From: a virus
Lineage: Duplodnaviria; Caudoviricetes
Reading direction: 5' to 3' (one strand)
DNA length: 60,600 bases
IMG/VR virus record: IMGVR_UViG_3300024428_000003
Location: 1 to 60,600 of that record
The position numbers and the translations under genes were made by a program. Shown one piece after another: positions 1 through 44,563 of this stretch (the stretch's first letter is position 1; every line of letters begins with the position of its first letter). Under the pieces are notes generated by a model. The model saw only the letters and a list, made by a program, of their open reading frames with translations. It had not been told where the DNA came from and searched no databases.

Positions 1-266
1 AAGCGGGGACGACGAGGATCTTACAGTACATAAATTCGCAGAGGAAGCAATGTATAAATACATAGCTCACGCGATTTTAGCAACGAGAATCAATACTCCG
101 GAATACTTAGTTAATAGATTTAAAAGAGAATTAGCTGCCGCGAGACGTAATACAAAAATAAGATTATCAAATATTAAAATAGAGGAAATTGCTCAAGTTA
201 TGCGCAATAAGTCCAAAATCATAAAACACTAGAATATGCCAGAATTAATTCACACGTTTACGTCAG
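1..266. repeat. Terminal direct repeat, copy 1 (assembly overlap of a circular or permuted genome)
   Basis: Matches 60335-60600 except at positions 37, 139 and 264. ORF 50..232 is the duplicated 3' end of 59655..60566. Confidence 0.97.
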
Positions 267-13100: not shown

Positions 13101-16100
13101 AGCTTCCAAGAATATTTGAAAACACCGACGCCTACGTAACCGCTATATATAGAGCTTTAAAAAGAAAAGAAAGATCTTATTTAAAAGCTGTAAAAGAAGG
13201 TAAGATAAAAGCTGACCCTGATTTTAAACCCCTAACAAAAGCTGAGGTTGCAAAACAAGCAGCTGAATCTGACGGAGTATATTTAGGGGCGGGTAGTCTT
13301 TTTATAAACAAAGAGATGGCTCGACAAACAGGTAAATGGACGGTTACTTCACATGAAATTATCCACCCTATACTTAACTCTTTAGTAGGTAGCTACTTAA
13401 ATCAGAAAGCAAACTACGATGACCTTATGAAGATTCTGCCTGCTAAGGTTAGAAGATCAATTAATAAAAAAATAGCGCAAACACAAGGTAAAGAAAAGCA
13501 AGCTATAGAGTTTTTAAACTATCTTTCTGATGCTGTTATTTCTGGTGAATTAGATTTTGACCCTTCTTTGTTTGATAAAATAAGATTGTGGTTTAACAAC
13601 ATAATAAGCAAGTTAGGCCTTAAGTCTGGTATTGAAAATCATGAAGACCTACATTTTGACGATGCCCGTGGTGTATACAACTGGCTTAAAGAATTTACAT
13701 CAGGTTTAAAAGAGGGCGGAGAAATAAGTGATAAAGCTGTAGAGGCTGTACAAAAAGCAGAAACAAAAGCAAATAGACTAGTTTCAGAAGATCCAGGATT
13801 AAGAGATCCTGAGAATGCAATGCAATTTTCTTCTAGTCAAGAAATATTAAATCTTGAAAATGCTTTAGATGATGCTTTAGATGCTTTTGCAGAAGACCCT
13901 AATAATCCTACTCTTGAAAAGAAAGTAGAAGAAGCGGAAAGATTACTAGAGGAAGCCGAAGAAAGGGTTGCTTCTGGTAGATCAGCTATTAAACAAGAAG
14001 CTAAACCTAAACCAAAGCCTAAAAAGAAAGTAGAGGCTAAGCCCGTTAGAACAACAGACTTAGGCCCTAGAGATCCAAAGTCTAAAAAGATTATGGACAC
14101 TTACAATGAAGGTATGGAGGGTGTCGAAAGAACAGAGTACAAGGCTAGTAAGCCATTACCAGCATCTTTAGAGAAAAAGCTAATACCTCTTTTTGAAGGG
14201 TATATTAATACAATAGTACAACAAAAGTTCAAGCAAGTTGGACCTGAAGCATTAGAGTTCCAAGATGCTTTGTCTATATTAAGAGCTGAGGTTGCTAGCG
14301 CAATACGTACATTTAATCCCGCTGTCAACAAAGATTTAGCAGGATATGTAAAAAGATACGGTGTACAAGCTAGGCAATCTTTAATGTTCGCAGACGCTAA
14401 CAAAGAATTTACTAGTGATATATCAGATGCTAAGGGAGTGGTCGACACTAATGATACACCGTCTATTGATCGTAGTGGCACAGTAGAAAGAGGCCAACGT
14501 ACTTTCGATGAGCTAGACATAGTAGACGAAGATTTAATAAACGATATTAGAACTGAGTTAGAAAAAGAAATAAGAATAAGAGTACAAAAAGGTACTTTGT
14601 CTGAAACTTTAGAAGTTAAGAAAGGTAGAGACACTTATATAGTTTCTTGGTTAGAAAACTATATACAAAAACAGTTATTTAAAAAGTTAATGAAAAAGCT
14701 AGGGGCTATAACAGGAGTATACCCTAATGCTGTAATCCCTGGATCTTATATAGACTTTCTAAACGATCCAAATACTTTTGATATAATAACTAAAGCTTTG
14801 CCAATTAAAAGCATTAAGAAGAGCTATGGCAAGTTATTTCCTCTTGAAAAAGTAGGTAGAGAAGTTACCCCAGAAGGCAACCCTGTATATAGAATTAAGA
14901 AAATAGAAAAAAGAGATTTCTTAACTTATTTTGTTAAAGGTAAAAAGTCTGCTGTACTAGAAAGACAGAAGCAATTATTTAGAGAAATACTTGAACCATT
15001 GGCAAAACAGGTTGTAGCAGACTATGCAACCCCCTCTAATTTAAGCGATTTAAAATCTATACAGGAATTGGCTCCAGAGAATTCTTTGGATGTTATTAAC
15101 GATATTGTTATAGAAGCACAATTAGCTAACCTAGAATCTAAGATAGATAGATACAAAGGCGAGAAAGAAGGTTTTGATATAATACAGTTTAGTAAAGAAT
15201 TAAACCAAAAAGACACTATAGATGTATTAGAGCAATTGGCTCAAAGAGAAAATATTACCGAGTTAAGAAAAGGTGTCTTGCAGGAGCTCATTAATAAAGT
15301 AACCAACGGACAAATCAGAACAACAAAAGACCTGATTAAAGCTGTTCATTCTATTGGAAAAGACCAATTAAGCACAAGAGCATATAGAGAATATGTTGTT
15401 AATGTATTATCTAAATTGCAATTTACACTAAGAACACCTAGTGTAGCTAACATAGTTAATGAAGGAGTAAAAGAATTTACAAAAATTTATAAGTACCAAC
15501 AAAAAATAATTGGTTATAATTATTCTACAACTAAGGTTAAGCGAGATTTTGACGAAGCTACAGATGATAAAAGCAAGGTTGAAGCTATAGTTAATTACTT
15601 AAATATAACAAGTAGATCCATACGTACCTTAGGGGTTGACGGTAATACAACTAATGAAAAAATATTTAATAATATATTAGTTCCTGCTTTTGGAGCGGAT
15701 CAATTATCAAAACTAAAAATAGATTTATTAAAAGAGTCTTATAAAGATAAAGACGGTAAAACTAGATTTAAAACCTACATTACAGTTAATAAAATAAAAC
15801 TAAAAGGATTAGTTCAAATAACAGAATTAAAATCAAACTTTGAAAATAATATTGATCAAGTTAACAAAGAGGCAATATTAGTAAGAAATTATTTAATTGA
15901 TGAAATTAACAGAGCCAAGCAAAATAACGAGGTAGATGCTGTAATTGGATTTATAAATTTATCGACAGCAGATCAAAGAGGAGCTGTTAGGAAACTAAGT
16001 TCTACTGGTATGTTTATGGTAAATACGCCAATAGCAAAATTAATACTGGAGCATGAAACTACTGCTAAGCAGCTAACAGAAGCTTTGGTTAAATATGCTA

Positions 16101-19033
16101 AAGGTGAAATTGATTTTAAAGTATTAACAAAAATACTCAACGGAGCTAAAATAAATTTAATACCTAAAAAATTAGATTTAATATTAAATAAACAAGGCTT
16201 AGACGGTATCGGGAGATACGAAACAGATCTTATTAAAGAAGAAATAAGCAAATTAAAAGCCAGCGGTAAATTAAAGTTTACTCAATATTCTAAAAGTAAG
16301 CTTGCTTTTGATCCATTTGATATGGCAGACGTAGTGACTATGTCGTTGTTTGGTGAAACTAAAGCCTTCAAGAACAGACAAGGATTTGAAAGAACTTATA
16401 AATATTTGAATCCATCCCAGCAAAAGCAGGTTCAGGAGGAAATGAAAAAACATAATTTATTTCAATTTAGCAAAACGCTTAATCAGGCTAAAGCTATGTC
16501 TAATAGAATAGACGCTCCTAATAAAGGTATAAGCGTATGGGATTTCGACGATACTTTAGCTACAACTAAGAGCAACGTTTTATATACATTGCCTAACGGT
16601 ACAAAAGGGAAAATAAATGCAACTGAATTTGCTTTACAAGCAGACCAATTAGCGGCACAGGGAGCTGAATTTGACTTTAGCGAGTTTAGCAAGGTTATGA
16701 ACGGTGCAAAAGGCCCAATGTTTGACAAAGCTGTTGCTCGTAATAAAAAGTTTGGTAATTCCAATGTCTACATTCTAACCGCTAGACCGGCTAATTCAAA
16801 ATATGCTATACATACGTTTCTTAAGGGAATCGGTTTAGATATTAAATTAGAAAATATATTTGGACTAGGTGATGGCACAGCTATTGCTAAAGCTAAGTGG
16901 GTAATTGGAAAAGTAGCTGAAGGTTACAATGATTTTTACTTTGCAGATGACGCATATAAAAACGTACAAGCGGTACAAGAAGTTTTAGAACAAGCAGACG
17001 TTAAGTCTAAAGTTCACCAAGCTAAAATACAATTTGCAAAAAGCTTAAATTCTGATTTTAATAATATTATACAAGATGTTACTGGAATAGATGCTGATAA
17101 AAAAATATCAGGTAATAAAGCAAAAATGCTTGGCAAAAAGAAAGGTAGGTTCAAATTCTTTTTACCACCCTCTGCAGAAGATTTTGCTGGGTTGTTATAC
17201 AAGCTAACTGGTAAAGGCAAAAAAGGTGAAGCGCATCAAGCTTGGTTTAAAAAATCATTGTTTGATCCATTTGCAAAAGGTATTAGAGAATTCGAAAGCT
17301 ATAAGCAAAACGCTACAGCTATTGTAAAGCAATTAAAGAAAAGCATAAAAAATATACCAGCTGGGTTAGGTAAGATTAATGAGACTGGTTTTACAAACGA
17401 AGCAGCAGTTAGAGTTTACTTGTGGACTAAAAATGGATTTGATATTCCAGACCTAACAGCAGAAGAGCAACAAGAATTGATAGAGGTAGTTAACAACAAC
17501 CCTAAATTGAAAAAATTTGCAGATCAATTAGATAAAGTGTTGGATGGTTATCCAGAGCCCCAAGATAGTTGGGTGGCTGGAACTATAACTACAGATGCTA
17601 TCAACATGATCAATACTGTAAAAAGAGCGGAGTTTTTAAAAGAGTGGCAAGAAAATGCAGACGCTATCTTTACAAAAGATAATATAAATAAACTAAGATC
17701 CCAATTTGGGGATAGCTATGTAGAAGCACTACAGGACATGCTCTACAGAATGAAAACAGGCCGTAACAGACCATCTGGCGCAAATAAGCTTACTAATCGC
17801 TTTATGAATTGGGTTAATGATTCTGTAGGTACAATAATGTTTTTCAATACTAGATCAGCATTGCTACAAACTTTGTCTATTGTAAACTTTATAAATTGGC
17901 ACGATAACAACCCTATACAAGCTGCAAAAGCTTTCGCAAACCAAAAACAATTTTGGAGTGATTTTTCAATGATATTTAATTCAGACTTTTTGAAACAAAG
18001 AAGATCTGGTTTAAAAAATGACGTTAATGCGGATGATATTGCTAGCGCTGCTGAAAATGAAACAAATAAAGCTAAAGCTGTGTTTGCCTCATTGTTAAAA
18101 GCAGGTTTCTTACCTACGCAGATAGCGGATAGTTTTGCAATCGCAATGGGTGGAGCTTCATTTATTAGAAATAGAATAAATATGTACGTGGCCGAGGGAA
18201 TGACTAAAGCAAAAGCTGAAGAGCAAGCTTTTTTAGATTTCCAAGAAATTGCAGAAGAAACACAGCAATCCTCAAGACCAGATAGAATATCGCAACAACA
18301 AGCGAGCCCATTAGGACGTATTGTATTAGCCTTTGCGAATACCCCTATGCAATACATGAGATTATCTAAAAAGGCTTTCTTGGATCTTAAAAACGGACGT
18401 GGAGACGCTAAAACAAATATAACCAAGATCATATATTATACAGCTGTGCAGAATATTATATTCTCTAGCTTACAAGCAGCTTTATTTGCGGTAGCATTTG
18501 ATGACGACGAAGAAAAAGCAAAAAACAAAGAAATCAGAGTCGCTAATTCTATGTTAGATTCCATCTTACGTGGAACTGGTATTTATGGAGCTATAGCTTC
18601 TACGATTAAGAATATAGTTGCGGAAATTTATACACAAAGTGAAAAAAGCCGACCTGATTATACGGTTGCTGCTCAAAGAGCTTTAAGCATATCTCCACCT
18701 ATAGATTCTAAGATGCGGAAGATAATGTCTGCAGCTAGAGCTTTTAGTTATAAAACTACTAGAGAGAAAATGGTTGGGTATGGTTTAGACAACCCCGCAT
18801 ATTATGCAGTGGGGCAAATACTTTCAGCAGGGTTTAATTTACCTGTTGATAGATTGATTAGAAAAGCTGACAACATAAGAGTAGCGCTTGATAATGAAAC
18901 TAAGATGTGGCAATCAATAGCACTAACATTAGGCTACAGCCAATGGGATCTAGGACTGATTGAAAGCGGAAAAAATAAAAAGAGTAATAAAAAAGGCTGG
19001 CACAATGTAAAGCGCGGCAGCTGGAAAGACTAA
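10187..19033 (+). CDS. Giant ejection (polyvalent) protein with zincin HExxH, sigma-70 region-2-like and HAD phosphatase-like domains
   Basis: 2948 aa. HEIIH at 13352-13366; sigma r2-like segment ~14168-14383; HAD motifs DFDDTL (16541), ILTARP and FADD; helical C-terminus. Confidence 0.75.
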   Translation: MEKLYEALNKSGKYTKSLEDFKTQFSSTAGQEKLYGALKSSGDYTKSFSDFSTQFFNTEESVKTNDSAAADPSVESNATGSNWVDGSSEQLDSGFVSENNRGKREKLIDDDYSGTMISRMFDDDPNNSWADGTSESFKDSWKAWEKNNPVFAKAVKADKSLTLGKTANIPDVLGPLARAISNWVRKDDAEDEAAINNNPELHEKYRGYRNDVSIEEQAEQFYNSNDLDLNDTNSNAAYNDDKRTDFIEEYYINNPESKVLLEEANVNASDFQGFLNRKGYIDEFDKQKEAGAYEQDDSNLPDNLTMQQDLKSYFDEYLIETASRNVERVVLEEIKNNPSEYKNMSLPEAMGAADVKLMEDPEKYNYGTHLDFNKLEDWNSNNWDSINKYNAEQIKNIEDAQQARIEETETGVKTGLYGSGRTLVGALNKLGDGLEDVYDFVKMDGKVFGWVLPIIGEGRQANEFRDLRDKSNRRALRGEANINYLYAEGKQVTLNGKEYIKQANGSIKQITNGFDVSKTISDKDRKAIDDAIANGDYIYGADFDGFGGSIIAGQTIGELAIQIVGQKGTGLLRRAASLKYLGKVKNLSKARLTRMELGYNKTKGINSRGINYGGVTGGAKGTWDTFGKKIPLGISKGMADAVIFQSGYGAMTGYNQAKTAALDAGMSMEESEAIANEASLGMAALFALTTPINPKTGLIDKIFKGTGKNSTASLFRQLINASGNAAGVRRNFGRIVAAPLQTKLAKFGAIVASEGAKEMVQENVQQIGEAALNKVLNKGIGKDLLKDTYTYEDFVNTSALSFAAGGFAGGVGSISTLTGRKNIMNDSEKVQKLRQLIQNPAKVEKIFDSWVKNGDITRKEADGLNQEIQKFGRNINKMPKFLSDRRMSTELLKVIDSQENISKLEKQRKNAIPGEQALIDEKLKVLKEQQTKLLVDAQNTLDADNKVFEGKFTKNTAAVVNFARKLGFGESKLPRIFENTDAYVTAIYRALKRKERSYLKAVKEGKIKADPDFKPLTKAEVAKQAAESDGVYLGAGSLFINKEMARQTGKWTVTSHEIIHPILNSLVGSYLNQKANYDDLMKILPAKVRRSINKKIAQTQGKEKQAIEFLNYLSDAVISGELDFDPSLFDKIRLWFNNIISKLGLKSGIENHEDLHFDDARGVYNWLKEFTSGLKEGGEISDKAVEAVQKAETKANRLVSEDPGLRDPENAMQFSSSQEILNLENALDDALDAFAEDPNNPTLEKKVEEAERLLEEAEERVASGRSAIKQEAKPKPKPKKKVEAKPVRTTDLGPRDPKSKKIMDTYNEGMEGVERTEYKASKPLPASLEKKLIPLFEGYINTIVQQKFKQVGPEALEFQDALSILRAEVASAIRTFNPAVNKDLAGYVKRYGVQARQSLMFADANKEFTSDISDAKGVVDTNDTPSIDRSGTVERGQRTFDELDIVDEDLINDIRTELEKEIRIRVQKGTLSETLEVKKGRDTYIVSWLENYIQKQLFKKLMKKLGAITGVYPNAVIPGSYIDFLNDPNTFDIITKALPIKSIKKSYGKLFPLEKVGREVTPEGNPVYRIKKIEKRDFLTYFVKGKKSAVLERQKQLFREILEPLAKQVVADYATPSNLSDLKSIQELAPENSLDVINDIVIEAQLANLESKIDRYKGEKEGFDIIQFSKELNQKDTIDVLEQLAQRENITELRKGVLQELINKVTNGQIRTTKDLIKAVHSIGKDQLSTRAYREYVVNVLSKLQFTLRTPSVANIVNEGVKEFTKIYKYQQKIIGYNYSTTKVKRDFDEATDDKSKVEAIVNYLNITSRSIRTLGVDGNTTNEKIFNNILVPAFGADQLSKLKIDLLKESYKDKDGKTRFKTYITVNKIKLKGLVQITELKSNFENNIDQVNKEAILVRNYLIDEINRAKQNNEVDAVIGFINLSTADQRGAVRKLSSTGMFMVNTPIAKLILEHETTAKQLTEALVKYAKGEIDFKVLTKILNGAKINLIPKKLDLILNKQGLDGIGRYETDLIKEEISKLKASGKLKFTQYSKSKLAFDPFDMADVVTMSLFGETKAFKNRQGFERTYKYLNPSQQKQVQEEMKKHNLFQFSKTLNQAKAMSNRIDAPNKGISVWDFDDTLATTKSNVLYTLPNGTKGKINATEFALQADQLAAQGAEFDFSEFSKVMNGAKGPMFDKAVARNKKFGNSNVYILTARPANSKYAIHTFLKGIGLDIKLENIFGLGDGTAIAKAKWVIGKVAEGYNDFYFADDAYKNVQAVQEVLEQADVKSKVHQAKIQFAKSLNSDFNNIIQDVTGIDADKKISGNKAKMLGKKKGRFKFFLPPSAEDFAGLLYKLTGKGKKGEAHQAWFKKSLFDPFAKGIREFESYKQNATAIVKQLKKSIKNIPAGLGKINETGFTNEAAVRVYLWTKNGFDIPDLTAEEQQELIEVVNNNPKLKKFADQLDKVLDGYPEPQDSWVAGTITTDAINMINTVKRAEFLKEWQENADAIFTKDNINKLRSQFGDSYVEALQDMLYRMKTGRNRPSGANKLTNRFMNWVNDSVGTIMFFNTRSALLQTLSIVNFINWHDNNPIQAAKAFANQKQFWSDFSMIFNSDFLKQRRSGLKNDVNADDIASAAENETNKAKAVFASLLKAGFLPTQIADSFAIAMGGASFIRNRINMYVAEGMTKAKAEEQAFLDFQEIAEETQQSSRPDRISQQQASPLGRIVLAFANTPMQYMRLSKKAFLDLKNGRGDAKTNITKIIYYTAVQNIIFSSLQAALFAVAFDDDEEKAKNKEIRVANSMLDSILRGTGIYGAIASTIKNIVAEIYTQSEKSRPDYTVAAQRALSISPPIDSKMRKIMSAARAFSYKTTREKMVGYGLDNPAYYAVGQILSAGFNLPVDRLIRKADNIRVALDNETKMWQSIALTLGYSQWDLGLIESGKNKKSNKKGWHNVKRGSWKD

Positions 19034-28408: not shown

Positions 28409-28585
28409 TTAATATTGATTTACTTGATTAAACATTCTTTGCAACTGTTCTTTGGTCGCGCCGCTATTCCGCCTTAAGTTGTCTACGGCTTTTACATGGT
28501 TTTGGTTGGTATAAAAATTAGTTACATTAGTTTCTAATCCTGTTACACTACATACTTTTGTTACTGGTTTTCTGGTTCTTCCCAT
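28409..28585 (-). CDS. Small hypothetical protein (58 aa, not in ORF track)
   Basis: MGRTRKPVTKVCSVTG...; fills the gap between the exonuclease and SSB. Confidence 0.5.
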   Translation of the reverse strand: MGRTRKPVTKVCSVTGLETNVTNFYTNQNHVKAVDNLRRNSGATKEQLQRMFNQVNQY

Positions 28586-34381: not shown

Positions 34382-34417
34382 TATATTATCGTTACTCTGT
34401 CGTATTTTGTTTGCAAA
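34382..34417 (-). promoter_or_regulatory. Early promoter motif, copy 3
   Basis: Same consensus; overlaps the 3' end of the upstream ORF. Confidence 0.8.
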
Positions 34418-34601
34418 TATCTTGTACGTTCTCTAAGGCTAGCTTGTAACCGAAGTTCATCGCCATTTGCATTAATAGTATATCCATAGATCCCTGATTC
34501 GCTTTAGCAAATGATTCTAGGTATTCTCTGTTTGCTGGTGTAGCGACGATTCCTCGATCCAGCATTTTCATTTCTTGGTCAATATAGTTTTGTATATCCA
34601 T
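34392..34601 (-). CDS. Hypothetical early protein
   Basis: 69 aa ORF. Confidence 0.6.
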   Translation of the reverse strand: MDIQNYIDQEMKMLDRGIVATPANREYLESFAKANQGSMDILLMQMAMNFGYKLALENVQDICKQNTTE

Positions 34602-34602
34602 G

Positions 34603-35169
34603 TTATATAAAGTTATTTAAGTTTACTACTTCATGCTCGTACACATTATTGTTTTTTCCGTGAGCATAAGGTAATCTCCACTTTTCAATTATTTCAGGGT
34701 ACAATAATTTAGTGATCATGCGGAATTCGAAATCATCAGCGTATAGCATTTCACCGTTTTTATAGTCAGTCATTTCAGTGGTAGCCTTGTCTACTACTTC
34801 AAATTTTTGTTTCCAACACTTTAATAATTGAGATTTAGTTAATGACTTAAGACCAGGGTATTGACTAGTGATCATGTGGTAGTCTTCAATTTCTTTAATC
34901 GTATCGGAACAAAACACACTGAAGTTATCTACTCCAAATAGTTTGCCGTATAGTTCTTTAAATCCATCATACTTACAACGCTTACCGTCTACATAAAAAT
35001 CTAACTCAGTGTCGTTAATATCATGGTGATAAACTGCTTCACTAATGTGATCAAACTTACTAACTACACTATATAAGCTAGCTTTCACTGTGAACATTCC
35101 TTTATCTACTTCATAGTAGCCATTGACGTTGAACCCGATCTCTTCACCGGTCTTTTTAATTTTACTCAT
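34603..35169 (-). CDS. Hypothetical early protein
   Basis: 188 aa ORF. Confidence 0.65.
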   Translation of the reverse strand: MSKIKKTGEEIGFNVNGYYEVDKGMFTVKASLYSVVSKFDHISEAVYHHDINDTELDFYVDGKRCKYDGFKELYGKLFGVDNFSVFCSDTIKEIEDYHMITSQYPGLKSLTKSQLLKCWKQKFEVVDKATTEMTDYKNGEMLYADDFEFRMITKLLYPEIIEKWRLPYAHGKNNNVYEHEVVNLNNFI

Positions 35170-35190
35170 ATCTATTTAATTTAAATTTAG

Positions 35191-35269
35191 TGGAAGTGGA
35201 CAGAATCGAACTGTCTTCCGTAGTAATTCCTTTGCAGGCTTTTTACTACGTCAAAACCATATCACCCCC
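35191..35269 (-). ncRNA. Minimal tmRNA-like RNA (tRNA-like domain only)
   Basis: GGGGGTG-ATATGGTTTTGA-CGTAGTAA-loop-TTACTACG-GAA-GACAG-TTCGATT-CTGTC-CACTTCC-A. G3:U acceptor pair, stemless D-loop, P2 helix, T arm. Confidence 0.8.
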
Positions 35270-35274
35270 GTGTG

Positions 35275-35386
35275 CTACAAGCTAGGGTAATAACTATTGA
35301 GTGTTTTTAGATTCCTGAGTTCATAACGATCCCTCACCAGTTCACTTGCATTATCACTCGCATTACTACTCGATACTAACTTGTAG
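35275..35386 (-). ncRNA. Rod-like structured RNA candidate
   Basis: Nested helices on the minus strand: CTACAAGTTAG/CTAGCTTGTAG, GTAGTAAT/GTTATTAC, GAGTG/CACTC. Confidence 0.45.
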
Positions 35387-35391
35387 TTATT

Positions 35392-35493
35392 TGTAACTAG
35401 TGAGGATTCGAACCTCATACCCGTCGGTAGTCATAGTCATTGTAGGCTCGTGAAAACGTTTACCTACTTCAGTACTAAACCTAACCTAGTCGC
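35392..35493 (-). ncRNA. Atypical tRNA-like RNA (T arm plus acceptor-like stem, no canonical D or anticodon arms)
   Basis: TGAGG-TTCGAAT-CCTCA T arm; GACTAG/CTAGTT stem; internal GTAGG/CCTAC hairpin. Confidence 0.55.
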
Positions 35494-35660
35494 CTCTAGC
35501 TATTCACTTATGTATTAAAGAGTTGCGGGCTGTATACGGCCACCTTTAACCTAATTAAGCTACTCGTCTAGTTTGTTATTGAAAGCGTGATCGGCGTCTA
35601 ATACATTTTCGTCATTAGATATACCGGCCGGTCCACCGATGTTTGCTTCCTTATTACATA

Positions 35661-35696
35661 TATATTATCGATCGGTGATCGTAATACGTTTGCAAT
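35661..35696 (-). promoter_or_regulatory. Early promoter motif, copy 4 (upstream of the ncRNA cluster)
   Basis: Same consensus; followed by ~490 nt without an ORF. Confidence 0.8.
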
Positions 35697-35945
35697 TTAA
35701 CCTCTTTCTGTACCCATATAACCAGGTAGTTGTTCTAGAGGGTCTTCATAGTAGCCCTTCTTTATTTCGAACCACATTTTCTCGATTGCACGGAACATTA
35801 CTTCAGAGTGTATAGCATTATACTCGTCGCCATCTGCTTCGAAGTCCGCTAATTGCCAATCGATACTATCATACATTAATTCCATAGTGACGTCCGCTAC
35901 TCCTTCAGCGATCTCGTCTAGTTGTTTCATCTTGCTCATTACCAT
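35697..35945 (-). CDS. Hypothetical acidic early protein
   Basis: 82 aa, D/E rich. Confidence 0.6.
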   Translation of the reverse strand: MVMSKMKQLDEIAEGVADVTMELMYDSIDWQLADFEADGDEYNAIHSEVMFRAIEKMWFEIKKGYYEDPLEQLPGYMGTERG

Positions 35946-36047
35946 TTGGTTTCTTTGGGCATAGGACCCATAAATTCATAAAATGCTTTGTGATACTTTG
36001 TTATCTTAGCTATCACTAAGTGACTAAATTTTCTTACTTTTTTCATA

Positions 36048-36323
36048 TTATTTACAGTTTTCTTCGTTAAAATCTATTAATCTTCTTATTCGATCGGCAT
36101 GATTGGTTATTAAATCTCTCACATAGTTATAACCATATTTACTCTTTGGCTTATACCAGTGCTTTCTTTGCCTATTTATTTGGTACATTAGCGGTTTTTT
36201 ATGGTAATAGTTATCTTGTTTGGTAGATACTCTTACGTAACCACTAGGGTATGTAGCGCCAATTCTTCCATCACTCAATTTAAAATGTAGAGCTCCATCT
36301 TTAGTTACTTTTATTAATTCCAT
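36048..36323 (-). CDS. Hypothetical early protein
   Basis: 91 aa ORF. Confidence 0.6.
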   Translation of the reverse strand: MELIKVTKDGALHFKLSDGRIGATYPSGYVRVSTKQDNYYHKKPLMYQINRQRKHWYKPKSKYGYNYVRDLITNHADRIRRLIDFNEENCK

Positions 36324-36544
36324 ATTGTAGTATTTTTAGTAAAATAATTTATATTAGGGTTTGCTCCTATACTTTTAGCGACATTTTGACGTAATTGCCA
36401 CTCTCGTTTGCGGTATTCCGGATCGGTACACCACTTACGCCACGCTTTTGACGTTGTATTAGGTTTATACTTCTTCTCGAATGCCTCAACTCGCTTTAGT
36501 TTCTCTGCGATCTTGTCGGCTGGGAAATCTTTAAACTCTGACAT
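36314..36544 (-). CDS. Hypothetical early protein
   Basis: 76 aa ORF. Confidence 0.6.
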   Translation of the reverse strand: MSEFKDFPADKIAEKLKRVEAFEKKYKPNTTSKAWRKWCTDPEYRKREWQLRQNVAKSIGANPNINYFTKNTTIWN

Positions 36545-36722
36545 AGGTAAATCCTTTATAGTTAAACCACTCTGTTATACCGTCTTGATCTTTTTCTTCG
36601 TTATAGATGAAGGCGAATGTGTTAGGTAAGTTACCGATCGTGTATGGTCGATAGTTAATGCCGTTAAGTATGGCGTGTATAGCACCGGTCATACTGTCTT
36701 TCTTAAATTTTATTTTGTTCAT
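36531..36722 (-). CDS. Hypothetical early protein
   Basis: 63 aa, behind promoter copy 5. Confidence 0.6.
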   Translation of the reverse strand: MNKIKFKKDSMTGAIHAILNGINYRPYTIGNLPNTFAFIYNEEKDQDGITEWFNYKGFTYVRV

Positions 36723-36745
36723 AGTATTAGTATTTTAGATTCATA

Positions 36746-36781
36746 TATATTATCGATTAGGTATCGTATTTTGTTTGCAAA
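36746..36781 (-). promoter_or_regulatory. Early promoter motif, copy 5
   Basis: Same consensus. Confidence 0.8.
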
Positions 36782-36782
36782 T

Positions 36783-37022
36783 TTAATTACTATGATAGAA
36801 GGTGTGAATACGGTTGGATCGGTTTTGATCACTCCATAGCTTGGTATGAGAATACTTTCTACCTCTACTACCGGCTCCTTTACCTTTCACTTTGAGTCTT
36901 CTATACTCTTTATCCGTTAAACCACTACATAGATCACCTTGTGTTACTTCTACTCTATGCTTCTTAGCTTTAGCTATTCGGGAGGTTTTTACGTACTCAC
37001 ACGCTTCTTTCATTGTCATCAT
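36783..37022 (-). CDS. Hypothetical basic early protein
   Basis: 79 aa ORF. Confidence 0.6.
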   Translation of the reverse strand: MMTMKEACEYVKTSRIAKAKKHRVEVTQGDLCSGLTDKEYRRLKVKGKGAGSRGRKYSHTKLWSDQNRSNRIHTFYHSN

Positions 37023-37032
37023 AGTATTCGTT

Positions 37033-37278
37033 TTAATTATTATTTATAGTTACTTCAACCCAACCTTTTTCACTGTGGCCGGCATATACTTTTAATCCGT
37101 CTTTAGTTAGTATTTCTTCTAACCGTTCCGCTGCTCGCCAAAGACTTGGTTCCGGCATTTCATCGTGCTCGTCGTCGTACATTACTTCGCCTCTACACTG
37201 GTAGAACACATCGTCTACGTCATTCTCTACTAATTCAAAGTCCCAACCGTTTACGGTTATAGTTTCTGTTAATTCCAT
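37033..37278 (-). CDS. Hypothetical acidic early protein
   Basis: 81 aa ORF. Confidence 0.6.
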   Translation of the reverse strand: MELTETITVNGWDFELVENDVDDVFYQCRGEVMYDDEHDEMPEPSLWRAAERLEEILTKDGLKVYAGHSEKGWVEVTINNN

Positions 37279-37604
37279 AATTACTTAAATTTATTTGCTA
37301 CTTCGTATATTTCTTCTTTATCGTCTTGATCCAAATTGTCTGTTTGATTAGCGTACATTCTTAGTACATAGTGTACAAAGGTACAATCACCGTCGGTAAG
37401 TTTTATATTTCTCATATTACTTGTTATTATTTATTAGCCACATTAACTGTGCATACTCTTCGTACTCTTGTTCGTTGGTAAATTCGTATTCTCTCATTGT
37501 ATATAGTATTTAATTAATAATCATCTTCTTCGTCGAACTCTGCCCATTCCAAGCAAGCACCACATAACTCGTCACTTAAGTAACTCGGTTCTGCACCGCA
37601 ACAA

Positions 37605-37823
37605 TTACTCCACATCGGTACTCGCTATTTGAAAGGTTGATGGAAATTGAGACACCATATAGTTGGCTAAACCTAGCCCGTCGTTTGCTTGTTCCGCTAT
37701 GTATTTAGCGATCCGATCTTGCATTTCGAATAAGTCATCTTGGCAATATTGGTCGCACAAGAAAAATCGGTCACCTCCCATTAGTTCGCAGAGTCTAGTG
37801 ATAAATAGTACATTTTTGGTCAT
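37605..37823 (-). CDS. Hypothetical early protein
   Basis: 72 aa, behind promoter copy 6. Confidence 0.6.
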   Translation of the reverse strand: MTKNVLFITRLCELMGGDRFFLCDQYCQDDLFEMQDRIAKYIAEQANDGLGLANYMVSQFPSTFQIASTDVE

Positions 37824-37846
37824 AATAGTTATATTTTTAATTCATA

Positions 37847-37882
37847 TATATTATCGATCTACCTACGTTTTTTGTTTGCAAA
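37847..37882 (-). promoter_or_regulatory. Early promoter motif, copy 6
   Basis: Same consensus. Confidence 0.8.
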
Positions 37883-37963
37883 AAAGTATATACTTTGTTT
37901 ATTGGTAAAATTAGTAGTACAGGTATTACTCTACCTCTCTTAGTACGAAGTAAAATAAAAACT

Positions 37964-38009
37964 GTGACGTTAGGTTGTTAAGTTAAATATAGTAACACGC
38001 TATTGTCGC
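37964..38009. promoter_or_regulatory. Bipartite inverted-repeat site, copy B
   Basis: GTGACGTTAGG-N24-GCTATTGTCGC. Confidence 0.6.
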
Positions 38010-38253
38010 ATTTTTTGATGAGGTTTAGGTACTCTTTTGCTTCACCGATCGATCACTCTTCACCGTGTATAGCACCACGAAACATTCACGTAGGACGGAG
38101 TCTACTCTTCCGGTGTATAGCAAATATACCCAGGCCAAATGTATAGCATTTTGTTATTTACCCATCAAGGTGGTGTCGGGCACTCATTTTCATGAGGTAG
38201 AATTTTATGGTCATTCACCAACCCGAACACCTCATCCCTGAGGGAAAGTAAAC

Positions 38254-38565
38254 CTATTTTTCAAGGTCTACTCTTTCAATTACCGTTTGTCTAACGTTTG
38301 AAGGCATATCGGTACTTTGTGACCAGTAACCTCGTTTGATCCAACATGGCATGATGTTTAGTTTAGGTAACATTACTTTTAATACCTCATCATGATTATA
38401 GGTAATCTTTTGATTTTTGTTGTTGACAAAGGTAATGATTTGATTTCTACCCATCCAACTTTTACGGACTACGAAGTTCTTTCTTTCGATCGGTGGATAG
38501 ATTGCCAACTTTTCTTCGTTTGATAATTTTGAAATTGTTTGTTGTAATAATTCTTGATTTGTCAT
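38254..38565 (-). CDS. Hypothetical early protein
   Basis: 103 aa, behind tandem promoter copies 7 and 8. Confidence 0.65.
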   Translation of the reverse strand: MTNQELLQQTISKLSNEEKLAIYPPIERKNFVVRKSWMGRNQIITFVNNKNQKITYNHDEVLKVMLPKLNIMPCWIKRGYWSQSTDMPSNVRQTVIERVDLEK

Positions 38566-38608
38566 AATTTATTATATTTAATTGTTTATTAAGTTACTTT
38601 GTTACATT

Positions 38609-38644
38609 TATATTATCGAATACTATTCGTACTTCGTTTGCAAA
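38609..38644 (-). promoter_or_regulatory. Early promoter motif, copy 7
   Basis: Same consensus. Confidence 0.8.
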
Positions 38645-38687
38645 TTTGTTTATTTCTATTTAAGTTTAGTATTATTTTGTATTCATA

Positions 38688-38723
38688 TATATTATCGATA
38701 ACTACACGTACTACGTTTGCAAA
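38688..38723 (-). promoter_or_regulatory. Early promoter motif, copy 8
   Basis: Same consensus, tandem with copy 7. Confidence 0.8.
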
Positions 38724-38833
38724 GTGCTATACAGCGTATGCTATACGCTATACGCGGCGTACCGCGGAGTATACTCTTCCGCTCCTATTTCAAAAGCAGG
38801 CCGTAAGCCGGACCAGATGCCAGAGCCAGGATC

Positions 38834-38992
38834 TTAGTCCCGCTCCAGGATCTCGTGCCCGATCACTTTGGATGTGGCTTCATCCCGATAGCACACGCGC
38901 AGATAATTGCTGAGGTGCTGCTCGTTGCTGAACCGAACCACGCGACTGTTATAATTGCCGCGCCAGTTCTTCGTGTCGATACGAACCAGCAT
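38834..38992 (-). CDS. Small early protein (52 aa, not in ORF track)
   Basis: MLVRIDTKNWRGNYNSRVVRFSNEQHL...; ATG overlaps the upstream TGA. Confidence 0.55.
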   Translation of the reverse strand: MLVRIDTKNWRGNYNSRVVRFSNEQHLSNYLRVCYRDEATSKVIGHEILERD

Positions 38993-39144
38993 CAGATCGA
39001 TTCCCAGAACAGATCACGCTGCTCGTTTGTTAGACCTATCAGGTTGTCCTGACCGAACATCTGCTGGCAGATTACAGTTCTGCGCTCAGACTCTTTAATG
39101 TTTCGCATGACTTCATCCCATGCTTGTTGATTTGTTTGATACAT
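38992..39144 (-). CDS. Small early protein (50 aa, not in ORF track)
   Basis: MYQTNQQAWDEVMRNIKESERR...; directly behind promoter copy 9. Confidence 0.6.
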   Translation of the reverse strand: MYQTNQQAWDEVMRNIKESERRTVICQQMFGQDNLIGLTNEQRDLFWESI

Positions 39145-39171
39145 AATTATTAGTTTTATTTGTTATACATT

Positions 39172-39207
39172 TATATTATCGGTGTGTCACCGTGTTATGT
39201 TTGCAAA
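39172..39207 (-). promoter_or_regulatory. Early promoter motif, copy 9
   Basis: Same consensus. Confidence 0.8.
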
Positions 39208-39210
39208 GCT

Positions 39211-39369
39211 CTAGCCGTAGATCCCAAAGGATGTTGGCGCGCCGTGCTCGATCATGTGTGCTACGATTGCGATCAGGCTCAGGCCAATGAATGCTGTTGT
39301 GCCGTAGACCACGATGCCTGTTGCGATGTTGATCAGTCTGTTGTGGTGGAATGTTCTGTTAGTTTTCAT
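39211..39369 (-). CDS. Small membrane protein (52 aa, not in ORF track), first gene of the early arm
   Basis: MKTNRTFHHNRLINIATGIVVYGTTAFIGLSLIAIVAHMIEHGAPTSFGIYG. One TM segment; behind promoter copy 10. Confidence 0.6.
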   Translation of the reverse strand: MKTNRTFHHNRLINIATGIVVYGTTAFIGLSLIAIVAHMIEHGAPTSFGIYG

Positions 39370-39395
39370 ATTGTTATTGTTATTTGTTATTCATA

Positions 39396-39431
39396 TATAT
39401 TATCGGGTGACCAGCGTAGTACGCTTGCAAA
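39396..39431 (-). promoter_or_regulatory. Early promoter motif, copy 10
   Basis: TTTGCAAGC variant of the consensus. Confidence 0.75.
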
Positions 39432-43006: not shown

Positions 43007-44563
43007 ATGGAAACAAACAATCCAAGCGATATAGTGAAGACACTGACATTCGGTGAACCTGCTAGAAATGAAATAATGCAAGGCGTTGATAAATTAGCAA
43101 GCGCAGTGAGGTCCACTTTAGGAGCCTCGGGAAAATGCGTAATATATGAAGATGCTTTGGGTAGACCGGTAATTACAAAAGATGGTGTAACCGTTGCGGA
43201 AAGCGTAGTCTTATTACATCCGGTTGAAAATATAGGAGCAACCTTAATAAAGGAAGCTGCTAGCAATACAGTAAGAGAGGCTGGTGACGGTACCACGACG
43301 GCTACCGTACTGGCTGATTCTCTGTTAAAAATAGCTAATGAAAGTTTAAATGAAGAAAAAGTTAGAGGTATTAAAGATGGCATTATTAGTTGTGCTAACA
43401 AAGTTAAGATACATCTTGATAAGTCCAGTACTCCAGTTGAAGGTGAAATGTTACGGAGTGTTGCTACAATTAGCTGTAACAACGATGTTGAGCTTGGAAG
43501 AAAAATTGGAGAAGCTTACGAAAAAGTTGGAAGTAATGGAGTCGTATTAATGGAAGAGTCTGAAACGAACGAAACTTACGTGGAATTCGTTGAAGGAGTA
43601 CAATTTGATTCAAAATTAAAATCAATACATTTAGCGACAGACAAAGACAAGAGATCTGCTGTTTTAGATAACCCCTATGTGCTTATTGTTTCCTCTCCTA
43701 TTCCTAATATAAGAAGAATACAAAACGTCTTAGAACACGTTATAAAGAACAAAAGAAGTTTATTAATAGTTTCAGAAGTAGAGCAACAACCTTTAGCTAC
43801 TTTGATATCAAATAAAGTGAAAGGTAATATTAAGGTAAACATTATAGATACACCTGGTTTTGGGCCAACAAGACAAGATACTATAGAAGATTTAGCTATA
43901 TTGACAAATGCTACTATAATAGATGAATCACTTGGAGATGACTTAGATTTAATAGATCCTAATGTATTAGGTGAAGCCGTTAAATCAGTCACTGACGAAA
44001 AAGGCACAGTGCTGCAAGTTGAAACAAATGGAGATATTTTAAATGAAAGAATATCTTTTGTTGAAAATAAGATTGCAGATGAGACTAATCCTTTCTTTAG
44101 AAAAAAGCTAGAACAAAGATTATCTATGCTAACTGGTAAAGTTGGTATTATAAGAGTTGGAGCTGATTCCAAAGTGGAATTAAAAGAAAAGAAAGATAGA
44201 GTTGAGGATGCCATTCATGCGACAAAAGCCGCTTATAAAGAAGGTATTGTTGCTGGTGGAGGTGTAGCTTTACTAAATGCTTCACAGAAAATTAAACCTG
44301 CTAACAGGGGTGAGGAAATATTGCTAGAAGCAATCAAAGCACCTTACTACACCATATTAGACAACGCGGGTATTGTAGAGATCAAAAAGCTTACTATTAA
44401 AAATAGAGGTATTGATGTTAAGACTGGCAAAGAAGTTAATATGATTAAAGCAGGTATTATAGATCCGGTTTTGGTTACAAAATCGGCGCTAAAAAATGCA
44501 GTAAGTGTTGTAACAACAATAATATCTGCAGACTGTGTAATTAGTAATAAAAGATTAGCATAA
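43007..44563 (+). CDS. groEL: Chaperonin GroEL (Cpn60)
   Basis: ITKDGVTVA, AGDGTTTATVLA, GIVAGGGVALL, GIIDP; lacks the GGM tail. Confidence 0.96.
   Translation: METNNPSDIVKTLTFGEPARNEIMQGVDKLASAVRSTLGASGKCVIYEDALGRPVITKDGVTVAESVVLLHPVENIGATLIKEAASNTVREAGDGTTTATVLADSLLKIANESLNEEKVRGIKDGIISCANKVKIHLDKSSTPVEGEMLRSVATISCNNDVELGRKIGEAYEKVGSNGVVLMEESETNETYVEFVEGVQFDSKLKSIHLATDKDKRSAVLDNPYVLIVSSPIPNIRRIQNVLEHVIKNKRSLLIVSEVEQQPLATLISNKVKGNIKVNIIDTPGFGPTRQDTIEDLAILTNATIIDESLGDDLDLIDPNVLGEAVKSVTDEKGTVLQVETNGDILNERISFVENKIADETNPFFRKKLEQRLSMLTGKVGIIRVGADSKVELKEKKDRVEDAIHATKAAYKEGIVAGGGVALLNASQKIKPANRGEEILLEAIKAPYYTILDNAGIVEIKKLTIKNRGIDVKTGKEVNMIKAGIIDPVLVTKSALKNAVSVVTTIISADCVISNKRLA

What the first reader, a model, noticed from the sequence alone, without database searches (positions are those of the whole stretch)
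35191..35269. 79-nt tmRNA reduced to its tRNA-like domain
Seen (minus strand): GGGGGTGATATGGTTTTGAC matches tmRNA 5' ends, with a stemless D-loop. CGTAGTAA/TTACTACG forms P2 but is capped by a 16-nt loop in place of the ~270-nt pseudoknot and tag-ORF region. This is followed by a short GAA linker, the T arm and CACTTCC-A. The acceptor stem has the G3:U alanine determinant and discriminator A; CCA is not encoded (CTA follows). Knowledge: SmpB binds this domain, and I recall that reduced forms have been noted in a few phages. Inference: it is an SmpB decoy that inhibits trans-translation, or a tag-less ribosome rescue RNA, expressed early.
Basis: partly seen in the sequence, partly recalled or inferred. 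Interest (0 to 1): 0.75.

Follow-up and report, generated by a model that had tools for sequence, protein, structure and literature searches.

The report
Phage mini-tmRNA: tRNA-like domain only
A marine Flavobacteriaceae-type phage carries a real 79-base gene for only the alanine-accepting, tRNA-like part of tmRNA, a reduced form already known from one mycobacteriophage and found here in many uncultured phages, which most likely competes with the host's ribosome-rescue and protein-tagging system.

Summary
Window 35191-35269 (-) is a TLD-only tmRNA. Rfam RF00023 scores it 57.3 bits (cut-off 47), with 12 nt where the model has 304 positions. ARAGORN misses it.

It is not a chance match. A pattern scan found 78 IMG/VR contigs (57 distinct sequences) with the same build. 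The helices covary strongly: 96.7% of cells are paired against 43-58% in slid controls, and 16 of 20 pairs show compensatory changes. G3:U70 and A73 stay fixed when left free in the pattern.

The window is a complete 60.6-kb virus record with no integrase and no SmpB. The RNA lies in a 527-nt non-coding locus behind an early-type promoter motif.

Mycobacteriophage DS6A's published "TLD only" tmRNA has the same architecture. This is therefore a new member of a known kind.

The most likely function, inferred and not tested, is an alanine-chargeable mimic that uses host SmpB and competes with host tmRNA, so that tagging is blocked or bypassed.

Side findings: hypervariable ncRNA modules next to the gene, and chromosomal mini-TLDs in Poribacteria.

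The parts
35191..35269 (-). Mini-tmRNA (TLD-only), G1 to discriminator A73, 79 nt
   Evidence: RF00023 57.3 bits, model 1-374. Own model R1 86 bits. MFE fold.
35263..35269 (-). Acceptor stem, 5' strand GGGGGTG
   Evidence: Pairs with 35192-35198. G3:U70 and G4:U69 wobbles.
35251..35262 (-). Stemless D-loop analogue (ATATGGTTTTGA)
   Evidence: Aligns to the conserved tmRNA positions GAucuGGaUUCGA at high posterior probability.
35219..35250 (-). P2 helix (8 bp, CGTAGTAA/TTACTACG) with 16-nt cap that forms a 3-bp hairpin
   Evidence: In the family, P2 pairs 2-7 are paired in 311 of 348 cells against 37% when slid.
35199..35215 (-). T arm (GACAG / TTCGATT / CTGTC)
   Evidence: T-stem pairs 1-4 are paired in 58 of 58 sequences, with several pair types.
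35191..35198 (-). Acceptor 3' strand CACTTCC plus discriminator A
   Evidence: U70 and A73 are kept in 78 of 78 loci when left free in the pattern.
35188..35190 (-). CTA after the discriminator (CCA not encoded)
   Evidence: Among 57 distinct viral copies, CTA follows in 12 and CCA in 11.
35657..35695 (-). Promoter-like bipartite motif TTGCAARC-N18-GATAATATAWATG at the head of the non-coding locus
   Evidence: 7 exact matches, all on the minus strand between 35657 and 39430, 0 expected. The other six are followed by an ORF start; this one is not.
35496..35577 (-). Conserved ncRNA 'RNA-X': motif 1, a variable hairpin, and motif 2 (CATAAGTGAATAGCTAG); upstream neighbour in the same non-coding gap
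35393..35491 (-). Second tRNA-like RNA (6-bp acceptor GACTAG/CTAGTT, GACG-loop hairpin, T arm TGAGG/TTCGAAT/CCTCA)
   Evidence: Stems covary among 6 distinct relatives.
35275..35386 (-). Long hairpin module closed by CTACAAG/CTTGTAG
   Evidence: The same module sits at the P2 tip of the TLD-like RNA of L155.

Best explanation
This is a genuine phage gene for a tmRNA homologue that keeps only the tRNA-like domain, the type first seen in mycobacteriophage DS6A.

Proposed course of events (all inferred):
1. It is transcribed with the neighbouring small RNAs from an early-type promoter about 390 nt upstream.
2. It is cut out like a tRNA, by RNase P at G1 and by 3' trimming after A73, and the host enzyme adds CCA.
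3. Host AlaRS charges it with alanine through G3:U70 and A73.
4. It binds host SmpB, and EF-Tu once charged. The phage has no SmpB of its own.
5. It has no resume codon, tag frame or pseudoknots, so it cannot template a degradation tag.

The net effect would be competition with host tmRNA for SmpB and for stalled ribosomes, so that ssrA tagging is reduced or bypassed during infection.

Shown here: identity, architecture, selection on the structure and on the alanine identity elements, absence of integrase and SmpB, and the genomic setting. Not shown here: transcription, processing, charging, SmpB binding and the effect on trans-translation.
For: Identity:
- RF00023 matches end to end at 57.3 bits, above the cut-off of 47. 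A lower-scoring overlapping match from the same clan was dropped.
- In five whole genomes, the hits under the cut-off reach at most 43.2 bits, while mini-TLDs score 57.6-70.1.

Family:
- 78 IMG/VR contigs hold it, 57 distinct sequences in 36 clusters at 80% identity.
- 96.7% of cells are paired against 43-58% in slid controls. 16 of 20 pairs carry compensatory changes. 0 of 500 shuffles reach the observed values.

Selection on the RNA rather than its surroundings:
- Against 10 relatives the RNA is 76-99% identical, while the 200-nt flanks are 10-56% identical.

Alanine identity:
- With position 70 and the discriminator left free, the scan returns the same 78 loci, all with U70 and A73.
- The neighbouring pair 4 is G-C in 56 of 58 sequences, and pair 5 shows four Watson-Crick types.

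Treated like a tRNA:
- A tRNA gene lies within 300 nt in 13 of 78 loci, on the same strand in 10 and 1-6 nt away in five.

Needs host SmpB:
- There is no SmpB in the window or in 27 of 27 other records.
- None of those 27 records has a full-length tmRNA.

Precedent:
- DS6A's TLD-only RNA has the same build, including the inner hairpin and a 3' A-CTA. It scores 58.8 bits on a model built without it.
- A similar molecule strongly inhibits tmRNA in E. coli whether or not it can be charged (PMC4131195 and PMC11915505, passages read).
- Peptidyl transfer to a TLD-only truncated tmRNA occurs in vitro (PMC3895274, passage read).

Phage lineage:
- Distant cultured relatives, Cellulophaga phages Calle_1 and phi40:1, carry a full 362-nt tmRNA. 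Calle_1's TLD, the one read, resembles the window's.

Promoter:
-.
Against: - No expression evidence. Contigs of four marine RNA libraries cover both flanks, but none covers 35145-35400. That is uninformative, not negative.
- The inhibition reported for the DS6A-like molecule did not need charging. The strict conservation of G3:U70 and A73 is therefore not explained by simple SmpB titration and may point to another use of the charged RNA.
- The window's copy has an extra G4:U69 wobble next to G3:U70, seen in only 2 of 58 distinct sequences. Its effect on AlaRS recognition is unknown.
- The two closest GenBank relatives, MW202828 and elemoB, lack the RNA, so it is dispensable for this kind of phage.
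- No host genome was available, so the fit to the host's SmpB and tmRNA is untested.
- Why a lytic phage would gain from weaker tagging is not established.
Confidence: 0.55

Rival explanations
1. It is a helper, not an inhibitor. The Ala-charged mini-TLD with host SmpB adds cheap extra capacity to free ribosomes stalled on the many broken mRNAs of an infected cell. The peptide goes to Ala-TLD and is then released by drop-off, peptidyl-tRNA hydrolase or another rescue factor, without a degradation tag. The same has been proposed for tag-less organellar tmRNAs.
For: G3:U70 and A73 are invariant in 78 of 78 loci, which argues that charging, and so ribosome entry, matters. Peptidyl transfer to a TLD-only RNA works in vitro. 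CDS-less mitochondrial and plastid tmRNAs co-occur with SmpB and are thought to be useful (PMC11915505, passage read). Related Cellulophaga phages carry a whole tmRNA, which suggests that phages of this group want rescue activity.
Against: No release step is known for peptidyl-TLD without a stop codon. The only experiment reported, for the DS6A-like molecule in E. coli, showed inhibition of tmRNA.
Confidence: 0.2
2. It is a processing and stability element. The tRNA-like fold serves mainly as an RNase P / RNase Z cleavage signal, or as a stable scaffold, that separates and protects the neighbouring small RNAs and the downstream mRNA of the early transcript.
For: It lies 18 nt upstream of an ORF start and directly after other structured RNAs, with no promoter or terminator of its own. 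In sister phages the P2 tip carries large, swapped inserts, as a scaffold would.
Against: Processing does not need G3:U70, A73 or the tmRNA-specific D-loop and GAC...GGA junction, yet all are conserved. The same RNA occurs in many unrelated contexts.
Confidence: 0.08
3. It acts on a host defence. It is a decoy for, or a trigger of, defence proteins that carry SmpB-like RNA-binding domains, such as the predicted tmRNA-binding SPB domains of type II/III-A CoCoNuT systems.
For: Such domains are described and predicted to bind tmRNA (PMC11090510, passages read). The RNA sits in the early, host-takeover part of the genome.
Against: There is no direct evidence at all, and the presence of such systems in the unknown host was not examined.
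Confidence: 0.05
4. It is a remnant of host ssrA carried as an attachment site (attP), or picked up by imprecise excision, and has no function of its own.
For: Phages often integrate into ssrA, and fragments of ssrA occur in prophages (PMC9004378, passages read).
Against: The complete genome has no tyrosine or serine recombinase. Among other carriers, 3 of 27 records have an integrase, and 1 of 13 that are at least 90% complete. An attP needs only the 3' part of ssrA, whereas here both halves are joined by a hairpin. Compensatory changes and diverged flanks show selection on the folded RNA.
Confidence: 0.02
5. It is a degenerate or unusual tRNA-Ala that has lost its anticodon arm.
For: The alanine identity elements and a standard T arm are present.
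Against: RF00023 outscored the overlapping clan member. ARAGORN calls no tRNA. There is no D stem and no anticodon arm. The D-loop and the GAC...GGA junction are the tmRNA-specific ones.
Confidence: 0.03

Closest known systems
TLD-only tmRNA of mycobacteriophage DS6A (tmRNA Website 'TLD only'; Hudson et al. 2014, PMC4131195; 2025 database paper, PMC11915505; experiment in Mao et al. 2009, which I could not read)
   Same: Phage-encoded and about 80 nt. It has a 7-bp acceptor stem with G3:U70, A73, a stemless D-loop, a short P2 capped by an A-rich stretch plus a small hairpin, a T arm, and A-CTA at the 3' end. It scores 58.8 bits on my model, which was built without it.
   Different: The host phylum is Actinomycetota, not Bacteroidota. 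DS6A scores below the Rfam cut-off (43.2 bits), while the window's copy scores above it. In DS6A the gene stands alone between two protein genes and is not annotated. Here it lies in a cluster of structured small RNAs.
Full-length phage tmRNAs (Cellulophaga phages Calle_1 and phi40:1; mycobacteriophage Bxz1 group; two-piece tmRNA of phage Melnitz)
   Same: They are phage-borne ssrA homologues. Calle_1's TLD closely resembles the window's (GGGGG.GA..GGTTTTGAC at the 5' end, CTA at the 3' end). Its TerL is 36.5% identical to the window's.
   Different: They keep the body of the molecule, 362 nt with a tag frame (ARAGORN tag AQIEANMEAVNAILNLEVAVGV*). The window's RNA has 16 nt there.
CDS-less organellar tmRNAs (jakobid and oomycete mitochondria; about 65-bp Mallomonadaceae plastid genes; PMC11915505 and PMC4131195, passages read)
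   Same: They are reduced to little more than the TLD, have no tag frame, and depend on an SmpB encoded elsewhere.
   Different: They are the only tmRNA of the organelle and are presumably its working rescue RNA. Here the RNA is added to a cell that already has a complete tmRNA.
Engineered TLD constructs used for SmpB co-crystals and in vitro trans-transfer (Gutmann 2003 and Bessho 2007, seen only as references in PMC11090510; Shimizu and Ueda 2006, as cited in PMC3895274)
   Same: The design is the same: acceptor, D-loop and T arm, with P2 closed by a loop. Such RNAs accept the peptide in vitro.
   Different: They are laboratory truncations of bacterial tmRNA, not natural genes.

Membership tests
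tmRNA (Rfam RF00023), tRNA-like domain | 7-bp acceptor stem with G3:U70 and discriminator A73 (alanine identity) | tested here: met
   Kept in 78 of 78 family members when left free.
tmRNA (Rfam RF00023), tRNA-like domain | Stemless D-loop analogue with conserved GG..UU.GAC, and a GAC...GGA junction at the base of P2 | tested here: met
   Aligned to the model consensus at high posterior probability.
tmRNA (Rfam RF00023), tRNA-like domain | T arm of 5 bp with a UUCGAnU loop | tested here: met
   The stem covaries.
tmRNA (Rfam RF00023), tRNA-like domain | Score above the curated gathering threshold | tested here: met
   57.3 bits against 47.
Complete tmRNA (functional definition) | mRNA-like domain with resume codon, tag reading frame and stop codon | tested here: not met
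   Only 16 nt lie between the two P2 strands. ARAGORN finds no tmRNA or tag.
Complete tmRNA (functional definition) | Pseudoknots PK1-PK4 | tested here: not met
   304 model positions are replaced by 12 nt.
Complete tmRNA (functional definition) | Binds SmpB and is charged by AlaRS | not testable with these tools
TLD-only phage tmRNA (DS6A type) | Phage-encoded TLD with P2 closed by a short cap, and no tag frame | tested here: met
   The architecture matches DS6A, and the two fit one shared covariance model.
TLD-only phage tmRNA (DS6A type) | Inhibits endogenous tmRNA when expressed | not testable with these tools
   Reported for the DS6A-like molecule. Not tested for this RNA.
Canonical tRNA (RF00005) | D stem and anticodon arm | tested here: not met
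   Neither is present. ARAGORN makes no tRNA call. The overlapping match from another family of the same clan scored below RF00023.
attP / ssrA fragment of a temperate phage | Integrase in the same genome | tested here: not met
   PF00589 and PF00239 give no hit in the complete record.
attP / ssrA fragment of a temperate phage | Identity with the 3' end of the host's ssrA | not tested
   No host genome could be reached.

The most novel reading that the evidence does not exclude
In this phage family the alanine-identity TLD may be more than a tmRNA competitor. It could be a natural tRNA-type scaffold within a cassette-swapping small-RNA locus. The tip of P2 and the hairpin of the neighbouring conserved RNA ('RNA-X') carry hypervariable, structured inserts, and the same inserts turn up in either position in different phages. 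On this reading the inserts would be the effectors, for example decoys for host RNA-binding defence or regulatory factors. The TLD would supply RNase P/Z processing, stability, and delivery to SmpB, EF-Tu or the ribosome. The window's 79-nt copy would be the bare form of that scaffold.
Probability: 0.12. Interest if true: 0.8.

Novelty: new member of a known kind. Interest (0 to 1): 0.5.

Why it matters
TLD-only tmRNA has been treated as a curiosity of one mycobacteriophage. In the papers I could search I found no other phage example and no survey.

This work adds four things:
- A Bacteroidota-type phage has such a gene.
- The form is common in uncultured aquatic and other phages: at least 78 contigs with the canonical form, plus 42 of 62 further contigs of this phage family with canonical or divergent forms.
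- Its alanine identity elements are under strict selection.
- Standard tRNA/tmRNA finders miss it. ARAGORN called it in 0 of 60 loci.

If these RNAs really divert host trans-translation, phages have a widespread 80-nt tool against a core bacterial quality-control system. The strict conservation of chargeability would also bear on an open question: what happens to a ribosome after transfer to a tag-less tmRNA.

It is still a known kind of molecule, and nothing about its function was tested here.

Tried and rejected
- **ARAGORN.** It found nothing in the window at default settings. At relaxed settings with introns it gave only implausible tRNAs with 76-98-nt 'introns' around the locus. I rejected these.
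- **Expression.** One run search and one laying of contigs from four marine RNA libraries were done. The contigs cover 34400-35144 and 35401-36400, but none covers the mini-TLD. Contigs break at repeats shared between co-occurring strains, so this says nothing either way.
- **Host tmRNA comparison.** This was not possible.
- **Mao et al. 2009.** The paper with the experiment on the DS6A-like molecule is not held. I rely on how two later papers describe it.
- **blastn against cultured phages.** The RNA gave only 21-22-nt T-arm matches, and the upstream ncRNA locus gave no match.
- **Closest GenBank relatives.** MW202828 and elemoB MT497068 have no mini-TLD by RF00023 or by my model.
- **Neighbouring ORFs.** They gave no informative family. 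The 188-aa ORF just downstream has no homologue in any held locus, so I dropped the idea of a linked protein partner.
- **CATAAGTGAATWGCTAG as a general phage promoter.** Rejected: it has one exact copy in the window.
- **First promoter pattern.** A spacing error gave 0 hits. It was corrected.
- **Supplementary files.** These are closed. The supplementary tables of PMC11915505 and PMC9004378 may list further phage tmRNA forms that I could not see.

Full report
**1. What is there**

In order, it has:
- a 7-bp acceptor stem, GGGGGTG/CACTTCC, with G3:U70 and a second wobble G4:U69;
- 12 unpaired bases ending in GA;
- an 8-bp P2 helix, CGTAGTAA/TTACTACG;
- a 16-nt cap;
- a GAA linker;
- a 5-bp T arm with loop TTCGATT;
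- discriminator A, followed by CTA rather than CCA.

Rfam's tmRNA model RF00023 matches 35188-35269 (-) over its whole length at 57.3 bits (gathering score 47, E 7e-20). Twelve bases stand where the model has 304 positions. In the permissive scan, an overlapping match to another family of the same clan scored lower and was dropped. The minimum-free-energy fold is the same structure, at -25.9 kcal/mol and z = -2.7. ARAGORN reports nothing in the window, also at relaxed settings.

As a scale for the score: in five whole bacterial genomes, hits to RF00023 under the cut-off reach at most 43.2 bits. Mini-TLDs score 57.6-70.1 bits and full tmRNAs 105.9-197.6 bits.

**2. The genome**

The window is a whole IMG/VR virus record of 60.6 kb, rated 100% complete by CheckV.

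Genes identified:
- ribonucleotide reductase, thymidylate synthase and a MazG-like protein;
- primase-helicase, an exonuclease and an Erf-like annealing protein;
- a sigma-factor-like protein and GroEL;
- large terminase, portal and virion proteins;
- two giant ORFs of 1943 and 2948 aa.

The large terminase is 62% identical to that of an uncultured podovirus (MW202828). It is 45% identical to those of the Flavobacterium 'elemo' podoviruses and 36-38% identical to those of Cellulophaga phages. The host is therefore most likely a member of the Flavobacteriaceae; this is an inference.

The record has no tyrosine or serine recombinase, no SmpB and no tRNA gene.

**3. It belongs to a family under selection**

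I wrote a pattern for a TLD whose two halves lie 22-52 nt apart. It matched 78 IMG/VR contigs of 4 to 167 kb. These hold 57 distinct sequences of 63-92 nt, which fall into 36 clusters at 80% identity.

Positions that the pattern left free covary. The figures below are for 58 distinct sequences, the window's included.

| Feature | Result |
|---|---|
| P2 pairs 2-7 | paired in 311 of 348 cells (89%); 37% when the partner is slid |
| Pair types in P2 | all four Watson-Crick types at each pair |
| Acceptor pair 5 | paired in 58 of 58, with four Watson-Crick types |
| T-stem pairs 1-4 | paired in 58 of 58 |

I built a covariance model (R1) from 45 of these sequences and aligned its 90 matches. On that alignment:
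- 96.7% of cells are paired, against 43-58% for slid partners;
- 16 of 20 pairs have changes on both sides;
- the covariation score is 0.67, against 0.07-0.11 for slid partners;
- 0 of 500 shuffles reach the observed values.

The alignment was fitted to the model, so it leans towards the structure. The anchored counts do not have that bias.

Against 10 relatives of the window, the RNA is 76-99% identical, while the 200 nt on either side are only 10-56% identical.

**4. Alanine identity**

I repeated the scan with position 70 and the discriminator left free. It returned exactly the same 78 loci, so every member has U70 and A73. By contrast, the neighbouring pair 4 is G-C in 56 of 58 sequences. 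A wobble that stays fixed at one position while its neighbours change freely is the mark of the AlaRS identity element; that G3:U70 is this element is established knowledge. Chargeability therefore appears to be selected. CCA is encoded in 11 of 57 distinct copies, and CTA follows in 12.

**5. Not an attachment site, and dependent on the host's SmpB**

I examined 27 other carrier records of at least 30 kb.
- 3 have a tyrosine integrase; among those at least 90% complete, 1 of 13 does.
- None has SmpB.
- All 27 have the mini form as their only tmRNA match, 66-92 nt long, and 25 of 27 score above the Rfam cut-off.

A tRNA gene lies within 300 nt in 13 of 78 loci. It is on the same strand in 10 and only 1-6 nt away in five. 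This fits maturation by the tRNA-processing enzymes. ARAGORN called the mini-TLD in 0 of 60 loci through the tool. In my script run over all 78 loci, one of its calls overlapped a mini-TLD.

**6. Setting in the window**

The RNA lies in a 527-nt gap without a credible ORF, 35170-35696, on the strand of the small-ORF and replication genes.

At the head of the gap is the bipartite motif TTGCAARC-N18-GATAATATAWATG. It has 7 exact copies in the window, all on the minus strand between 35657 and 39430, where 0 are expected by chance. The other six copies are each followed within about 20-55 nt by an ORF start; this one is not. I read it as an early promoter; that is an inference. No promoter or terminator lies next to the RNA itself. 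The next ORF starts 18 nt after the RNA.

Between the motif and the mini-TLD lie three further structured elements:
- **'RNA-X'.** This is an 18-nt core motif, a variable hairpin and a second motif. The core motif occurs in 70 viral contigs. The second motif follows it within 120 nt in 55 of 71 occurrences. The hairpin has 43 distinct sequences, and its six closing pairs are 88% paired in register, against 22-57% out of register.
- **A second tRNA-like RNA, 35393-35491.** Its T stem and its GACG-loop hairpin covary among 6 distinct relatives.
- **A long hairpin module, 35275-35386.**

**7. The wider phage family**

Of the 62 new contigs that hold the RNA-X core motif, 42 have a match to my TLD model a short way downstream on the same strand. 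Five of these are canonical, at 78-80 bits. Most of the others are more divergent RNAs of 73-125 nt that begin GGGCGTG or GGGAGTG. They keep G3:U70, A73 and a CTAA or CTAT tail. Three low-scoring matches are irregular: L187 and L160 have other acceptor ends, and the L156 match is cut at its 5' end.

I scanned 17 such loci with Rfam at its gathering scores. It calls a tmRNA in only the 3 canonical ones.

The P2 tips of the divergent RNAs carry large inserts. The same inserts occur in the RNA-X hairpin of other phages, and one of them is the window's module at 35275-35386. I could not explain this swapping of modules.

**8. Comparison with what is known**

- **DS6A.** The tmRNA Website papers list mycobacteriophage DS6A as 'TLD only'. 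They state that a similar molecule strongly inhibits tmRNA in E. coli whether or not it can be charged, perhaps by titrating SmpB (PMC4131195 and PMC11915505, passages read). The original paper was not available. I located the DS6A RNA at 28478-28560, in an unannotated gap between gp33 and gp34. It has the same architecture, including an A-rich stretch plus a small hairpin in the cap and A-CTA at the 3' end. It scores 58.8 bits on my model, which was built without it.
- **Peptidyl transfer.** Transfer to a TLD-only truncated tmRNA has been seen in vitro (PMC3895274, passage read).
- **Cultured relatives with a full tmRNA.** Cellulophaga phages Calle_1 and phi40:1 carry a full 362-nt tmRNA. Calle_1's TLD resembles the window's, and ARAGORN finds a tag frame in it. 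The mini form may therefore have arisen from such a gene by internal deletion; this is an inference.
- **Literature.** In six full-text searches I found no report of a TLD-only tmRNA in another phage and no survey of them.

**9. Mechanism**

The reading that fits best has three steps. The RNA is cut out like a tRNA, receives CCA, and is charged with alanine. It binds the host's SmpB. It then competes with host tmRNA. Because it has no template for a tag, tagging is blocked or bypassed.

Whether the outcome is mainly inhibition (my choice, 0.55) or useful tag-less rescue (0.2) cannot be decided from sequence. The strict conservation of the charging determinants argues that the RNA does more than soak up SmpB.

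Nothing on expression could be learned. Contigs of four marine RNA libraries cover both flanks but not 35145-35400.

**10. Verdict**

It is a new member of a known kind, the DS6A-type TLD-only tmRNA. The additions are a new host group, an unexpectedly wide distribution, and an unexplained variable small-RNA locus around it.

Noticed in passing
window 35496-35577 (-); motif 1 also in 70 viral contigs (L127-L188 and others): A conserved small RNA, 'RNA-X', consists of the motif GACGAGTAGCTTAATTAG, a hypervariable hairpin and the motif CATAAGTGAATAGCTAG. The hairpin has 43 distinct sequences, and its closing pairs are 88% paired in register. No Rfam family matches it. In one marine RNA library, a 206-nt contig that holds motif 1 has depth 828, against about 10 for the flanks, but its parts stand in a different order from the window.
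   Followed up: partly
window 35393-35491 (-); L004, L028, L038, L042, L052, L143, L151, L157: A second tRNA-like RNA lies upstream of the mini-TLD. It has a 6-bp acceptor-like stem, a variable central hairpin, a 3-4-bp hairpin with a GACG loop that covaries (TACC/GGTA, TACT/AGTA, TGC/GCA), and a T arm. ARAGORN does not call it at default settings, and neither does Rfam.
   Followed up: partly
window 35275-35386 (-); L155 4118-4242; L138, L168, L131 and others: Structured insert modules are shared between three places: the P2 tip of TLD-like RNAs, the RNA-X hairpin, and free-standing hairpins in different phages of this family. They behave like cassettes that are swapped. I have no explanation for this.
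   Followed up: partly
window 35657-39430 (-): Seven exact copies of TTGCAARC-N18-GATAATATAWATG, all on one strand, lie in front of small ORFs and of the ncRNA locus. They are probably the phage's early promoters.
   Followed up: partly
L086-L111 (21 of 26 genome-contig hits); G004-G006: Candidatus Poribacteria chromosomes carry one or two conserved mini-TLDs of 82-86 nt (57.6-70.1 bits). The three genomes that I checked also have a normal tmRNA of 357-359 nt. The mini copies have the same acceptor stem as the genome's own tmRNA. Whether they lie in prophages was not examined.
   Followed up: partly
L103/L107/L117 (Christensenella MAGs) and L021 (viral contig): An identical 77-nt mini-TLD occurs in a viral contig with an 8-tRNA array and in two Christensenella MAGs. 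The TLD of the one genome checked (G007) looks quite different from it, so this mini-TLD is not matched to that host's tmRNA sequence.
   Followed up: no
L008 3208-3288 (+): A sister phage of the window (G003) has a second, more divergent TLD-like RNA about 1.9 kb downstream of the first. It has a GGGTGTG acceptor, G3:U70, A73 and a CTA tail, and scores 38 bits on R1.
   Followed up: no
L193 1501-1860 (Cellulophaga phage Calle_1, MT732432.1): The full-length phage tmRNA encodes the tag AQIEANMEAVNAILNLEVAVGV*. By my recollection, this does not end in the usual ...LAA degradation signal, which would suggest that this phage's tmRNA also avoids proteolytic tagging.
   Followed up: no
L125 1501-1583 (DS6A, JN698994.1 28478-28560): The published TLD-only tmRNA of DS6A is not annotated in the GenBank record, and it scores below the Rfam gathering threshold (43.2 against 47 bits).
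   Followed up: yes
window 236-6067 (+), 10187-19033 (+) and 43007-44563 (+): The 60-kb podovirus-like genome has two giant ORFs (1943 and 2948 aa) and a GroEL-type chaperonin. The giant ORFs were not characterised. The terminase also gives weak hits to crAss-like phages.
   Followed up: no
window 35195 (-), position 69 of the RNA: The window's copy has U69 (G4:U69) where its closest relatives have C69. Only 2 of 58 distinct sequences show this second wobble. It may be a strain variant or an assembly error.
   Followed up: no
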